A stretch of DNA of 64,000 nucleotides from Hydrolagus affinis (Eukaryota), in assembly GCA_012026655.1 (NCBI GenBank), contig JAAILG010000077.1, positions 62,001 through 126,000 of the forward strand, given 5' to 3'. How positions within the stretch are numbered: position 1 is the first letter of the stretch; the number at the start of each line of letters is the position of its first letter. Shown here piece after piece: positions 51,001 through 54,000 of this stretch. A program made the position numbers.

Positions 51001-54000
51001 TGGTGAGTTCAAGAAACAACCACTGATAAATAACCATGACCGCTGAAAACTTCCATGTCCCTGGCAATGAGGATTTAGTGATGATAAAATACAGTACAGC
51101 TGAGCAATGCTCCATGATGCACAATGAGTTTGTCTAAAGGTTTGAATCCTGAGTCTTGCAGCTCAGTGGTTGGCTTACAAGCGAGAGGCATGGGTTCATT
51201 TCCAGGCAGGGTGAAACCTTGGGCGAGCTTCCTTAGTTCACTCGCCCGATAATAATCCCTCGAAACAAAATAATAATAATAATAAATTGGTCATTTCAAT
51301 CCACGGCTGTTTAGGGGACACTACTGTACGCAATTAGCTGCCATGTTTCGTCCACCTATATATACAGTTAATTTACTTCACAGTATATTCTGTGCTTTGA
51401 GATGTCTAGAAGCTGTGAAAAGCACTATATCAAATGCAAGGATTATTATTATACTATACAACAGGGGTGGAATATTACTATATGTCTTATTGATATTTCA
51501 CACAGAGGATCATAGCCTCTGTCAATACAAAATTGTGGCTGTAATTTTTCCGTGAAATCCACTTTGAACACCTATAAAATATAGTTTCTGGCCCTGGGCC
51601 TCTGTGTTACCCACCCTCACGGTGGGAGGGGCAGGTAAAACAACTGCAGAGCAACAGCCCTGTGAGAGACAAGGCACCAATACCAGCTGAAGTCAAAGGC
51701 AGAGAGTGGACCTGCTATAGACACCCTCGCACAGGGAGGCCGGTGGCGACACGGACCTGGGAGGAGCCCCCAATGTCACTGCGGGCGGCCGGGCGGGCGG
51801 GTGGACAGGCGGGAGAGCCCGTGCTGCGCCCCGAGACGCCGTCCGGCGTGGAGGGCGCTATATAAATTAAAGTTGTTGTTGTTGTTGTGGTTGTCGTTGA
51901 GACGGGTTTACCCAACAAATAATCATAATGCTAACAATCCTTCCATTTGCCACAGCGCCTTATCGCGTCTTCGAGACATGCCTCGAAGCGCTTCACAGAA
52001 CAACGGCAACGATACAATTACTTTTCGTAGAGCGGCCACAAAATATATCCGGTCGATTGAAGCGTTTCGAGCCGTCTCAAAGACAAACACACACACATAT
52101 AAAACACAGATATAGACAGACACACACACACACACACACAACGTGCCCCATACACGGCCACTTCACCCTCACCACACACACACACACACACGGACATGCA
52201 TACTCACAGACATACAAACAGACATAGAGACACACACACAGACACATACAGACAAACACATACAGACGCAGACATGCACACACATACAAACATACAGAGA
52301 CACTCCATTTGACACAGCCACATAAGGCGCTGTGGCAAATGGAGTGATAAATTTAATTCTAAATTTAATTTTAAATTTAATTGATATTAAATTTAATTCA
52401 CATTCTTATTAATATGTGAGGTTGGGGTGTGGGCTGGTGTTGGGTGACGTCATGAGCCCCCTCCTCCCCCCCCCCAATCCCCTTTGAGTCTGAGGGTTGA
52501 CTGATCGACTGTGTCTGCTCTCGACCTGAAGGGTCTGAGCTCGTGCCTGGGATGGGGGAGGGGGAGAAGTTGATCGGTGTATCGGCGTTCGCTGCTCTCT
52601 CCTGGGCCGGGCTGGGGGACAGACAGAGAGAAATGGGCAAAAAACACAAGAGACACAAGGCGGACAAACAGTTACTGGAGGGTAAGAGACCAGCACCGGG
52701 GGCCATCTGCACCCCCTCCCCCCCCCCCTCCACCCACCCAACCCCGTCTCCCTCCCTCCCCACCCACCCACCGGAGGCCCCGGTCCAGCCCGCGGCCTGT
52801 CCTGCTGTTCATAGCCGGGACTCAGGCCTGGCCTCTCCGCCTGGCTCCGTGCTCACCTCGGGAGGAGCCTGAGGCCTGGGAGGGGAGCCTGTCAGTCTAT
52901 GTGTGTGTGTGTGTGTGTGTGTGTGGGGGGGTGAGGGTGAACTGGCCCTGTGCGGCTCGCTCTGTAGGTGTATGCATGTCTGCGTCTGTATGTGTTTGTC
53001 TGTGTGTGTCTGTGTGTGTGTCTCTATGTCTGTTTGTATGTCTGTGAGTATCCATGTCCGTGTGTGTGTGTGTGGTGAGGGTGAAGTGGCCGTGTATGGG
53101 GCACGTTTTGTGTGTGTGTGTGTCTGTCTATATCTGTGTTTTATATGTGTGTGTATCTGTCTATTTGTCTGTATGTGTGTATCTATATGTGTGTCTGTCT
53201 GTCTATCTATCTGTATGTGTGTGTGTATCTATATGTGTGTGTGTGTGTGTGTATGCTGAGGGTGAAGTGGCTCCGATAACTCCCACTCAGCTCCTGTGTG
53301 AACCCTGTAAGCTAAAGCCCTAAAGGGTAGGGTGGTCCTACAACGACGACGACAACAACAACTTGCATTTATACAGCGCAGAGTAGCGCCCCAGAGCGCT
53401 TGGCAGTGGCAGAGAAGCAGCGGAGAAGTTTGCCAGACAGTGGCATCAGCGGCAAGCTGTGAGGTTTCAGCTGGTTAGACTCCCAACCCACACACTGGGG
53501 GTGTCAAGCCATGGGCACTTGCCAACCTGCAGCTAATAATTCCTGGAATTAGGAAAGCCGGATGTCCCTCCGGGGGGGTGGGGTGGGGGGGGTGGGGGGG
53601 TAGAGAGTGTGTGAGCATTTCATTCCTGCAATCCTTCCGGGATTTCCATGTGTACGTTGGGCGAATTGAAACCTCGGATGTTCTCTTAAGCGCGGCGATG
53701 GGGTCGTGTCAGACACCCACCCAGACAGCTGACGAGACACAAACAGAAGAAGCGTCTCGCTGCGTGTGTATGATACGGTGCCTCCTCACTGTGTGTGTTG
53801 ACGATCACCGATGAACGAATAATAGTTTGCGTCGAGAATCTGACGGAACCGTTCACAACATTCTCAGAACGCGCTGTTGCAATCTCTCCTCATAATATTC
53901 TATTCTCTCCCTCCCAGTGTCATCAGCCAGTGCTGTGCTTTCTCACAGCCCAGAATAATAATAATAATAATCCTTGCATTTTGATATAGCGCTTTTCACG

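What the first reader, a model, noticed from the sequence alone, without database searches (positions are those of the whole stretch)
52089..53154. BRD7 promoter and exon 1 sit in the loop of a ~190-bp inverted duplication
Seen: 52089-52278 is a near-exact reverse complement of intron-1 sequence 52973-53154. The match includes a 34-nt non-microsatellite anchor and the same pattern of interruptions, so it is not generic CA versus GT matching. The ~690-bp spacer holds the CRE, the likely TSS and exon 1. Inference: a recent template-switch duplication. It could make the promoter/exon-1 cassette invertible by recombination between the arms, add Z-DNA-prone tracts on both sides, or create dsRNA if transcription starts upstream of the left arm.
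Basis: partly seen in the sequence, partly recalled or inferred. Interest (0 to 1): 0.7.

Follow-up and report, generated by a model that had tools for sequence, protein, structure and literature searches.

The report
Inverted duplication flanking BRD7 promoter
A 200-base piece of the first intron of a cartilaginous fish's BRD7 gene was copied backwards into old repeat DNA just upstream of the promoter, most likely a harmless scar of a DNA-copying slip rather than a genetic switch.

Summary
52081-52288 is the reverse complement of 52963-53162: 194 matches, 6 substitutions and 8 gap positions in two dinucleotide tracts. The alignment scores 345, against at most 107 in 300 dinucleotide shuffles. 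It is the most similar long repeat pair in the window.

The loop holds a CRE (52445-52452) and BRD7 exon 1 (CDS 52633-52681). Exon 1 matches 14 of 16 residues of Callorhinchus milii BRD7. Later exons, all on the + strand, carry the bromodomain and DUF3512. The TSS is not shown.

The direction of copying can be read. The right arm sits in a three-unit GT-rich tandem array in intron 1 and is the source. The left arm is part of a 237-nt block (52085-52321) that splits a SINE 3' fragment. A nearby paralogue of that fragment is unsplit, with only 3 nt at the same point. The block ends in an 18-nt snap-back copy of the adjacent sequence.

This fits a multi-step templated inverted insertion (template switching, MMBIR-like).

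Nothing supports an invertible cassette, and the other two are untested: the longest perfect identity is 48 nt, the spacer is about 670 nt, and the arms share one RNA only on read-through. This is an ordinary mutational scar of low interest.

The parts
52081..52299 (-). Left arm: the derived, reverse-complement copy of intron-1 sequence. High-identity core 52081-52288; extends to 52299 across an 8-nt slippage indel.
52960..53162 (+). Right arm: the source copy, in BRD7 intron 1. It is the middle unit and part of the third unit of the GT-rich array.
52889..53271 (+). GT-rich tandem array of three units. Each unit ends in the motif found at 52930, 53074 and 53255. Units are 71-77% alike.
   Evidence: (D5)
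52085..52321 (.). The 237-nt inserted block that splits a SINE 3' fragment: the left arm, then the snap-back copy, then a few bases.
52301..52346 (.). Snap-back hairpin at the inner junction. 52301-52318 is the reverse complement of 52329-52346 (17 of 18), with a 10-nt loop.
52046..52084 (+). SINE 3' fragment, half A (SINE model positions 242-275), immediately left of the insertion.
   Evidence: E 0.082; 24 of 29 columns to the paralogue
52322..52359 (+). SINE 3' fragment, half B (model positions 280-315), immediately right of the insertion. An A/T-rich (TAAATT)n tail follows to about 52400.
   Evidence: E 3.7; 22 of 22 to the paralogue
51921..52009 (-). Paralogous SINE 3' fragment in the opposite orientation. 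It serves as the 'empty site': the two halves are only 3 nt apart (51967 / 51963).
52445..52452 (+). Palindromic CRE TGACGTCA, 188 nt upstream of the ATG and inside the loop.
   Evidence: the only copy in the window; 0.47 expected by chance
52633..52681 (+). BRD7 exon 1 coding part (MGKKHKRHKADKQLLE plus one base); donor GT at 52682. The 5' end of the exon and the TSS are not determined.
55586..55789 (+). BRD7 exon 2.

Best explanation
This is a real, evolutionarily young inverted duplication, and it is a mutational scar rather than a device. About 200 nt of a GT-rich tandem array in BRD7 intron 1 (52960-53162) were copied in reverse complement into a SINE 3' fragment 0.64-0.84 kb upstream. 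The event had several steps. The nascent strand left its template at ...AAAGAC (52084). It copied the opposite strand of the intron array, then copied 18 nt of the sequence just ahead of the break as a snap-back. It then resumed at ATAAGG (52322). This is the pattern of replication or repair template switching (template-switch mutation, MMBIR-like templated insertion). The insertion site lies in one arm of a short-spacer SINE quasi-palindrome, which may have been the stalling or breakage site. The result leaves the BRD7 core promoter and exon 1 between two arms of about 200 nt. It most likely has no function. Its predictable effects are 237 extra bases and two 20-21-nt (CA)n tracts added 146-365 nt upstream of the CRE. 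Shown here: the repeat, its uniqueness in the window, the direction of copying and the junction anatomy. Inferred: the enzymatic mechanism, the role of the quasi-palindrome and neutrality.
For: The repeat is far beyond chance and beyond generic CA/GT matching. It is far more alike than any other repeat pair of 150 nt or more in the window: 92.8% against at most 86.6%. SINE copies are 69-87% alike. The right arm is the source. Its 18-nt motif occurs three times in + orientation, at 52930, 53074 and 53255, within one array. The left arm matches the middle copy with 0 mismatches. The left arm is the insertion. nhmmer places SINE model positions 242-275 at 52046-52084 and 280-315 at 52324-52359, 239 nt apart. 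The neighbouring inverted paralogue 51921-52009 matches both halves (24 of 29 columns and 22 of 22), with only 3 nt between them. The 22-mer ATAAGGCGCTGTGGCAAATGGA occurs exactly twice in 64 kb even when 3 mismatches are allowed. None of the other 25 SINE 3' ends aligned carries that variant. The inner junction carries a 17-of-18 inverted copy of the adjacent 52329-52346, and the outer junction shares AGAC with the template. The quasi-palindrome folds as single-stranded DNA at -23.5 kcal/mol, z = -3.0; 2 of 200 shuffles fold as well. Published parallels, read as passages only: event type 1-4-3-2 of the four-point model creates inverted repeats, 31% of high-confidence human-chimp events (PMC5453318). 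MMBIR-type templated insertions are inverted copies of nearby templates with junction microhomology averaging 3.7 bp (PMC8421209). Fold-back inverted insertions at breaks span 2 to about 150 bp (PMC11724301). On likely inertness: in wild-type yeast, widening the spacer from 12 to 100 bp cut inverted-repeat-induced recombination 300-fold, and 94% identity cut rearrangements about 15-fold (PMC10164571).
Against: The two SINE halves match the SINE model only weakly on their own (E 0.082 and 3.7 in a 2.2-kb search), so the split-SINE argument rests mainly on one nearby paralogue, not on an orthologous empty site. A 4-nt microhomology can arise by chance. The copied tract (about 200 nt) and the template distance (0.64-0.84 kb) exceed the scales in the papers read: a template within 100 bp in the MMBSearch definition, and most fold-backs under 14 bp. 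Four of the 6 substitutions cluster at the arm ends. That fits error-prone synthesis, fuzzy boundaries, or later gene conversion of the centre, so the age is uncertain. No reads, no second individual and no related genome could be examined, so neither the assembly nor neutrality is tested. All 4 alternating purine/pyrimidine runs of 20 nt or more in the window flank this promoter, which leaves some room for a structural or regulatory role.
Confidence: 0.7

Rival explanations
1. The promoter and exon-1 cassette is invertible: recombination between the arms flips the loop, switching BRD7 off or on, or exists as an inversion polymorphism.
For: Inverted arms flank the promoter and exon 1. Nothing else supports this reading.
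Against: The longest uninterrupted identity is 48 nt, with 6 substitutions and 2 indel tracts. The assembled orientation is the functional one, with exon 1 on the same strand as exons 2 onward. A flip would detach the start codon and donor site from the rest of the gene. The ORF lists show no long intact ORF beside the locus, though they were not scanned for recombinase domains. The left arm arose as an insertion into repeat DNA, so the structure was not built as a switch.
Confidence: 0.02
2. Read-through transcripts that cover both arms fold into a roughly 200-bp RNA duplex. That duplex is edited or processed, or slows RNA polymerase, and so modulates BRD7.
For: Folded as one RNA, 52060-53180 pairs the two arms almost end to end in both the minimum-energy and the centroid structure (-642.9 kcal/mol). 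A CpG-rich stretch ending in a TATA-like SINE tail lies upstream of the left arm (51700-51900, CpG o/e 0.95). A paper on inverted SINEs lowering expression was seen as a search listing and start of abstract only (PMC5080714).
Against: The CRE, the GC-rich core and the ATG lie between the arms. A TSS there puts only the right arm in the pre-mRNA. An upstream antisense RNA from the same promoter would carry the same GU-rich sequence, not its complement. No expression data were available. Rfam finds no RNA family in the arms or the loop (2 matches in 50500-56000, both tRNA-like SINE heads).
Confidence: 0.05
3. The duplicated (CA)n/(GT)n tracts act as Z-DNA-prone or nucleosome-disfavouring elements on both sides of the promoter, and the copy is retained because it tunes transcription.
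For: All 4 alternating purine/pyrimidine runs of 20 nt or more in the 64-kb window flank this promoter: 52120-52140, 52173-52192, 52898-52925 and 53230-53256. The two tracts in the left arm are each 4 nt longer than their templates.
Against: The two longest runs (28 and 27 nt) belong to the older intron array and lie outside the duplicated segment, so the promoter already had such tracts. The left-arm tracts are only 20-21 nt. No conservation or functional data exist. That (CA)n tracts adopt Z-DNA under negative supercoiling is recalled knowledge and was not tested here.
Confidence: 0.08
4. Assembly artefact: the left arm is a chimeric or misjoined piece and does not exist in the genome.
For: Low-complexity, GC-rich promoter regions are hard to assemble, and no reads could be inspected.
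Against: The arms differ by 6 substitutions as well as by repeat length, unlike an in-vitro copy. The block is flanked on both sides by matching halves of one SINE fragment, not by a continuing palindrome or a contig end. There is no N or gap nearby.
Confidence: 0.05
5. The arms belong to a mobile element: the terminal inverted repeats of a foldback- or MITE-like transposon, or two independent insertions of one dispersed repeat.
For: The arms are long and internally repetitive with a 24-nt period, which is reminiscent of foldback elements (a recalled resemblance).
Against: There is no other copy of the arm or its motif in 64 kb. The bases outside the arms, 52072-52080 and 53163-53171, are not a target-site duplication. 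The right arm is an internal part of a larger tandem array. The loop holds a conserved gene's first exon. The arms do not match the window's SINE model.
Confidence: 0.03
6. The inverted copy is old, and the arms are kept alike by gene conversion between them.
For: Mismatches cluster at the arm ends (4 of 6) while the central 182 nt have only 2, as conversion of the centre would give. The left side stays CA-rich beyond the arm (52289-52303) and matches the third array unit at 74-77%.
Against: The same pattern follows from error-prone synthesis near switch points or from fuzzy ends. The arms are short for efficient conversion. The junction anatomy, including the snap-back and the split SINE, is still sharp.
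Confidence: 0.07

Closest known systems
Template-switch mutations, four-point model (Loytynoja and Goldman 2017, PMC5453318; passages read)
   Same: [quoted passage not shown] Switch-point order 1-4-3-2 creates a new inverted repeat able to form a hairpin.
   Different: Those events were found as short mutation clusters; events with a copied fragment under 14 bp were filtered out, and the examples shown span tens of bases. Here about 200 nt were copied from 0.64-0.84 kb away, and at least two switches are needed. The paper's size distributions are in supplements that I could not open.
MMBIR-type templated insertions (PMC8421209; passages read)
   Same: An insertion lies in inverted orientation to a nearby template, with junction microhomology and several consecutive template switches.
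   Different: That paper's detection signature requires a template within 100 bp and read-length insertions. Here the template is several hundred bases away. Only one junction shows microhomology (4 nt), which could be chance.
Fold-back (snap-back) inverted insertions at double-strand breaks (PMC11724301; abstract and passages read)
   Same: The 18-nt inverted copy of the adjacent sequence at the inner junction (52301-52318 / 52329-52346) matches in size and geometry: a short inverted duplication next to the break.
   Different: This explains only the small hairpin, not the 200-nt arm. The data are from yeast, and nothing shows the pathway in this organism.
Inverted Alu/SINE pairs as sources of instability (PMC10164571; passages read)
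   Same: Two arms of about 200-300 nt in inverted orientation with a spacer of hundreds of bases. The same rules on spacer length and divergence should apply.
   Different: The arms here are a local copy of intron sequence, not transposon insertions. With a 660-674-nt spacer and imperfect arms, the structure falls in the range that is weak in wild-type yeast. Its own stability is untested.
Bacterial invertible promoter switches (fimS, hin; recalled, no call)
   Same: A promoter-bearing segment is bracketed by inverted repeats.
   Different: Those use short repeats recognised by a dedicated site-specific recombinase and show both orientations in a population. No recombinase and no second orientation are in evidence here, and inversion would break a multi-exon gene.

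Membership tests
Template-switch / MMBIR-type templated inverted insertion | The inserted tract is a reverse-complement copy of a nearby template on the same chromosome | tested here: met
   52081-52288 vs 52963-53162: 194 matches, 6 substitutions; score 345 vs at most 107 in 300 shuffles
Template-switch / MMBIR-type templated inverted insertion | The insertion interrupts sequence that is contiguous in the ancestral (empty) state | tested here: met
   SINE model positions 242-275 and 280-315 lie 239 nt apart. The paralogue 51921-52009 has the two halves 3 nt apart. Caveat: this is a paralogue, not an orthologous empty site.
Template-switch / MMBIR-type templated inverted insertion | Microhomology at the switch junctions | tested here: inconclusive
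   AGAC is shared at the outer junction. Four bases can be chance. The inner junctions are blurred by an 8-nt slippage indel.
Template-switch / MMBIR-type templated inverted insertion | Further short templated pieces at the junction (serial switches) | tested here: met
   52301-52318 is a 17-of-18 inverted copy of 52329-52346 and pairs with it in the fold
Template-switch / MMBIR-type templated inverted insertion | Usual scale: tens of bases copied from within about 100 bp (a detection criterion in PMC8421209) | tested here: not met
   About 200 nt were copied from 638-840 nt away (coordinates). This is a difference of scale, not of kind.
Invertible promoter switch | Both orientations of the segment exist in a population or tissue | not testable with these tools
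   Only one assembled sequence is available. It is in the functional orientation.
Invertible promoter switch | A dedicated recombinase encoded nearby or acting on the repeats | tested here: inconclusive
   The ORF lists around the locus show only BRD7 exons and short repeat-derived frames. Four long frames gave no Pfam family. No systematic domain scan was done.
Foldback / TIR transposon or MITE | Target-site duplication outside the terminal repeats | tested here: not met
   The bases outside the arms (52072-52080 and 53163-53171) differ
Foldback / TIR transposon or MITE | Multiple dispersed copies | tested here: not met
   There is no other copy in the 64-kb window. Genome-wide copy number is not testable here.
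Inverted SINE pair (IR-Alu-like dsRNA source) | The arms are SINE copies lying within one transcript | tested here: not met
   The arms do not match the window's SINE model. Co-transcription is not testable here.
BRD7 gene (setting of the finding) | N-terminal exons matching BRD7, plus a bromodomain and DUF3512, all on one strand | tested here: met
   Exon 1 matches 14 of 16 residues and exon 2 matches 57 of 61 aligned residues of C. milii BRD7. All named hits listed are BRD7 or unnamed. Bromodomain and DUF3512 are found in later + strand exons.

The most novel reading that the evidence does not exclude
The young inverted copy has been co-opted. Occasional transcripts that start in the CpG-rich, TATA-tailed stretch upstream (about 51700-51900) would run through both arms. 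They would fold into a roughly 200-bp duplex that encloses the BRD7 promoter and exon 1. This would give a lineage-specific self-regulatory hairpin (edited, diced, or polymerase-stalling) at a chromatin-remodeller gene. Alternatively, the cassette may exist in both orientations as a segregating null allele.
Probability: 0.04. Interest if true: 0.55.

Novelty: new member of a known kind. Interest (0 to 1): 0.2.

Why it matters
The main value is as a clean, readable example. The direction of copying, the insertion site and a second snap-back step can all be read from a single sequence, because a neighbouring paralogue preserves the uninterrupted state. It suggests that template switching can act in a cartilaginous fish at a scale of hundreds of bases, larger than the short events described in primates. 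It also puts a long potential hairpin around an essential-looking promoter. For BRD7 biology there is no sign that it matters. For annotation, it is a warning that the CA-rich tract upstream of this promoter is a recent copy and not a conserved promoter element.

Tried and rejected
1. Larger ancient palindrome. A 40-nt match, 51855-51894 vs 53340-53379 (85%), shares its centre of symmetry with the arms (52617 vs 52621.5). I rejected it. Both are (GTT)n-tailed retroposon 3' ends that also match at least 6 other places in the window. The sequence between them and the arms is not homologous, and no alignment extends beyond the 40 nt (score 50).

2. The inverted SINE pair 51151-51452 / 53961-54270 (78%) as outer arms. 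I rejected it. These are ordinary members of a tRNA-derived SINE family with 37 hits in the window.

3. Classical CpG island at the promoter. The core 52400-52900 is 63.5% GC, but its CpG o/e is 0.40, about the window background of 0.38. It does not meet the mammalian-style criterion. CpG enrichment lies in the flanks instead.

4. Rfam search of 50500-56000 at E up to 0.1. It gave only 2 matches, both tRNA-like SINE heads, and nothing in the arms or the loop.

5. Literature on the BRD7 promoter. The listing held nothing usable, and no paper was read.

6. Size distribution of template-switch events in PMC5453318. Searches for 'longest', 'median', 'fragment length' and 'search region' found nothing in the main text, and the supplements are closed.

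7. One search translated exon 1 one base out of frame, which was my slip. One search uses the right frame.

8. Pfam on four long frames, including 49571-49954(-), which I had taken from memory for a LINE reverse-transcriptase remnant. No family was found, so that guess is unsupported.

Not checked:
- No vertebrate genome, read set or expression data is available.
- Genome contigs holds only bacteria and archaea and was not used.
- Cross-species conservation, genome-wide copy number of the arm, assembly support and the TSS therefore all stay open.
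Full report
**Scope and rules kept**

The window has no N. I do not take it for human. Its BRD7 exons are closest to the holocephalan Callorhinchus milii (93% in exon 2) and next to the ray Narcine bancroftii (86%). It is therefore a chondrichthyan, probably a holocephalan other than C. milii. The spliced gene model was examined exon by exon only. The step of joining exons into one protein was left out. Unnamed hits were neither fetched nor used.

**1.

- The repeat finder reports arms 52177-52288 / 52963-53074 (112 nt, 96% complementary, 674 nt apart) and 52081-52134 / 53109-53162 (54 nt, 96%).
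- Gapped BLAST joins them into 52081-52288 vs 53162-52963, 92.8% over 208 columns, E 2.6e-85.
- A Smith-Waterman alignment gives 194 matches and 6 substitutions. The 8 gap positions all lie in two (GT)n tracts. Identity is 97.0% without gaps, and the longest perfect run is 48 nt.
- The score of 345 compares with mean 78.8, sd 9.0 and maximum 107 for 300 dinucleotide-preserving shuffles.
- The same left arm matches the neighbouring GT-rich units at only 72-77%. The match is therefore not generic CA-versus-GT pairing.
- In the whole-window self-BLAST (287 HSPs, giving 76 inverted and 68 direct pairs) only two pairs reach 88% identity over 60 nt or more. One is this pair. The other is an unrelated 74-nt hairpin at 20384-20457. 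The next best pair of 150 nt or more is 86.6%.
- With an 8-nt slippage indel the homology runs on to 52299 / 52960.

**2. The setting**

- Exon 1 (ATG at 52633, donor GT at 52682) translates to MGKKHKRHKADKQLLE. It aligns to residues 1-16 of C. milii BRD7 with 14 of 16 identical.
- Exon 2 (55586-55789) aligns to residues 18-78 with 57 of 61 identical. Residue 17 is the codon split between the two exons.
- Later + strand frames carry the bromodomain (E 6.4e-10 and 1e-05) and DUF3512 (E 1.4e-20, 9.5e-06, 0.0027).
- The exon-2 search returned 217 proteins at E of 0.001 or better among 257 candidates. Every named one among the 120 listed is BRD7 or a BRD7-like or hypothetical entry.
- The palindromic CRE TGACGTCA at 52445-52452 is the only copy in the window. 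One copy is not surprising by itself: 0.47 are expected, and 35 of 100 shuffles have at least one.
The TSS is not shown by anything I could run.
- The core 52400-52900 is GC-rich (63.5%) but has a CpG o/e of only 0.40, against 0.38 for the window. CpG is enriched outside the arms instead: 51700-51900 at 0.95, 51900-52080 at 1.7 and 53640-53870 at 1.26.

**3. Which arm is the original**

The 18-nt motif GGTGAGGGTGAAGTGGCC occurs four times in 64 kb (0 expected). Three copies are in + orientation, at 52930, 53074 and 53255, and one is in - orientation at 52156. The left-arm copy is identical to the middle one. The right arm is thus an internal piece of a three-unit GT-rich tandem array (52889-53271) whose units are 71-77% alike.

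The left arm, in contrast, sits inside repeat DNA.

- I built a profile from 7 copies of the window's abundant tRNA-derived SINE. It gives 37 hits in the window, and tRNA-like heads were confirmed by Rfam at 54198-54269 and 54982-55053.
- A sensitive search of 51500-53700 gave 5 hits. One is the 3' fragment 52009-51921 on the - strand (E 3.5e-11).
- Two further + strand pieces cover model positions 242-275 (52046-52084, E 0.082) and 280-315 (52324-52359, E 3.7). These are adjacent parts of one SINE 3' end held 239 nt apart.
- On their own these two matches are weak. The neighbouring - strand fragment settles the matter. It matches the first half in 24 of 29 columns and the second half in 22 of 22, and in it the two halves are only 3 nt apart (51967 / 51963).
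- The 22-mer occurs exactly twice in the window even when 3 mismatches are allowed. None of the other 25 SINE 3' ends aligned shows that variant.
- The + strand fragment is therefore the closest relative of the - strand one, and it has been split by a 237-nt block, 52085-52321.

**4. Anatomy of the block**

It consists of three parts:

1. The reverse complement of 52960-53162 (the left arm).
2. 52301-52318, a 17-of-18 reverse complement of 52329-52346. This is the SINE sequence just beyond the insertion, and the two form a small hairpin.
3. A few bases before the SINE resumes at ATAAGG (52322).

At the outer junction the target and the template share AGAC. Before the event the template lay 638-840 nt downstream of the insertion point.

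The insertion point lies in one arm of a quasi-palindrome formed by the two SINE fragments, which have a 36-nt spacer between 52009 and 52046. The surviving part of that quasi-palindrome folds as single-stranded DNA at -23.5 kcal/mol, z = -3.0, and 2 of 200 shuffles fold as well.

**5. Most likely mechanism**

The anatomy is a reverse-complement copy of nearby sequence, inserted at one point, followed by a second short inverted copy of the adjacent sequence, with a short microhomology. This is the pattern described for replication or repair template switching.

- In the four-point model (PMC5453318, passages) the switch-point order here is 1-4-3-2. That type creates an inverted repeat and made up 31% of high-confidence human-chimp events.
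- MMBIR-type templated insertions are inverted copies of nearby templates with junction microhomology averaging 3.7 bp and often several switches (PMC8421209, passages).
- Short fold-back inverted insertions of 2 to about 150 bp form next to breaks in yeast (PMC11724301, abstract and passages).

My inference is that a fork stalled, or a break formed, in the SINE quasi-palindrome. The free 3' end then copied about 200 nt of the opposite strand in the intron array, snapped back once, and rejoined. I cannot tell fork switching from break repair. The scale is larger than in those papers.

'Recent' is relative. The arms are 97% alike, and 98.9% in the central 182 nt, against 69-87% between SINE copies. 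Later gene conversion of the centre cannot be excluded.

**6. What it does**

I commit to 'nothing selected', with about 0.7 confidence in the whole account.

- **Inversion.** Only 48 nt of perfect identity is available. A flip would separate the start codon and donor site from the + strand exons. In wild-type yeast, widening the spacer from 12 to 100 bp lowered repeat-induced recombination 300-fold, and 94% identity lowered rearrangements about 15-fold (PMC10164571, passages). Here the spacer is 660-674 nt.
- **dsRNA.** The arms pair nearly end to end if one RNA covers 52060-53180 (no shuffle control is available above 1000 nt). That needs a start upstream of 52081. With a start in the loop, the sense RNA and any upstream antisense RNA carry the same GU-rich version, not complements.
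- **Z-DNA.** All four alternating purine/pyrimidine runs of 20 nt or more in the window flank this promoter. The two longest (28 and 27 nt) are in the older array outside the duplicated segment. The left arm adds runs of 21 and 20 nt.

None of these readings can be excluded without reads, expression data or related genomes, and none was available.

**7. Rivals considered**

- An assembly artefact is unlikely. The arms differ by substitutions, and the block is bracketed by the two halves of one SINE fragment.
- A transposon with long terminal repeats is unlikely. There is no target-site duplication and no other copy in the window. The right arm is internal to a larger array.
- A larger ancient palindrome, suggested by a symmetric 40-nt match, dissolves. 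Both sides are (GTT)n-tailed retroposon ends that also match at least 6 other sites in the window.

**8. Verdict**

This is a new, unusually legible and unusually large member of a known class of mutation, the templated inverted insertion, placed around a promoter by accident of location. Interest is low (0.2).

The boldest reading the evidence does not exclude is a co-opted read-through hairpin or a segregating orientation polymorphism, at about 4%.

Supplements of the cited papers were closed. The size distributions in PMC5453318 that would show how unusual 200 nt is could therefore not be seen.

Noticed in passing
window 20384-20457: A perfect 35-bp stem with a 4-nt loop in complex, non-repetitive sequence (RNA fold -63.4 kcal/mol). 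It has no other copy in the window. It hits 19 rows of unrelated miRNA-precursor models on both strands in Rfam. Only mir-1421 just passes its gathering score (46.8 vs 45), so the matches look like structure alone. It is probably a fresh snap-back template-switch product, which would mean such events recur in this genome. It could also be a young miRNA-like hairpin.
   Followed up: partly
window 51921-52009 (-) and 52046-52084 + 52322-52359 (+): Two SINE 3' fragments in opposite orientation, 36 nt apart, share a private variant found in none of the other 25 SINE 3' ends aligned. They are either two insertions of a rare subfamily or an older inverted duplication. The quasi-palindrome folds with z = -3.0. 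It may be the fragile site that received the insertion.
   Followed up: partly
window 51700-52080 and 53640-53870 vs 52400-52900: CpG is enriched in the flanks outside the arms (o/e 0.95-1.7 and 1.26). The GC-rich core around exon 1 has only background CpG (o/e 0.40). The SINE fragments in the left flank keep CpGs that other copies have lost. This suggests a broad unmethylated domain of about 2.2 kb rather than a compact CpG island.
   Followed up: partly
window 51855-51894 and 53340-53379: Two (GTT)n-tailed retroposon 3' ends point towards the promoter from both sides. They have almost the same centre of symmetry as the arms (52617 vs 52621.5). Both match other sites in the window, so I read the symmetry as coincidence.
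   Followed up: yes
whole window: A tRNA-derived SINE of about 320 nt with an (ATT)n tail gives 37 hits in 64 kb, many of them 5'-truncated. Two copies lie in BRD7 intron 1 (53955-54275 and 54753-55057, both - strand). No protein-coding gene was evident in 1-51000 from the ORF lists.
   Followed up: partly
window 52348-52396 and 52711-52770: A (TAAATTTAATTC)n tandem, probably the expanded SINE tail, abuts the core promoter. A C-rich 30-nt repeat (2 copies, 83%) follows the exon-1 donor in intron 1.
   Followed up: no
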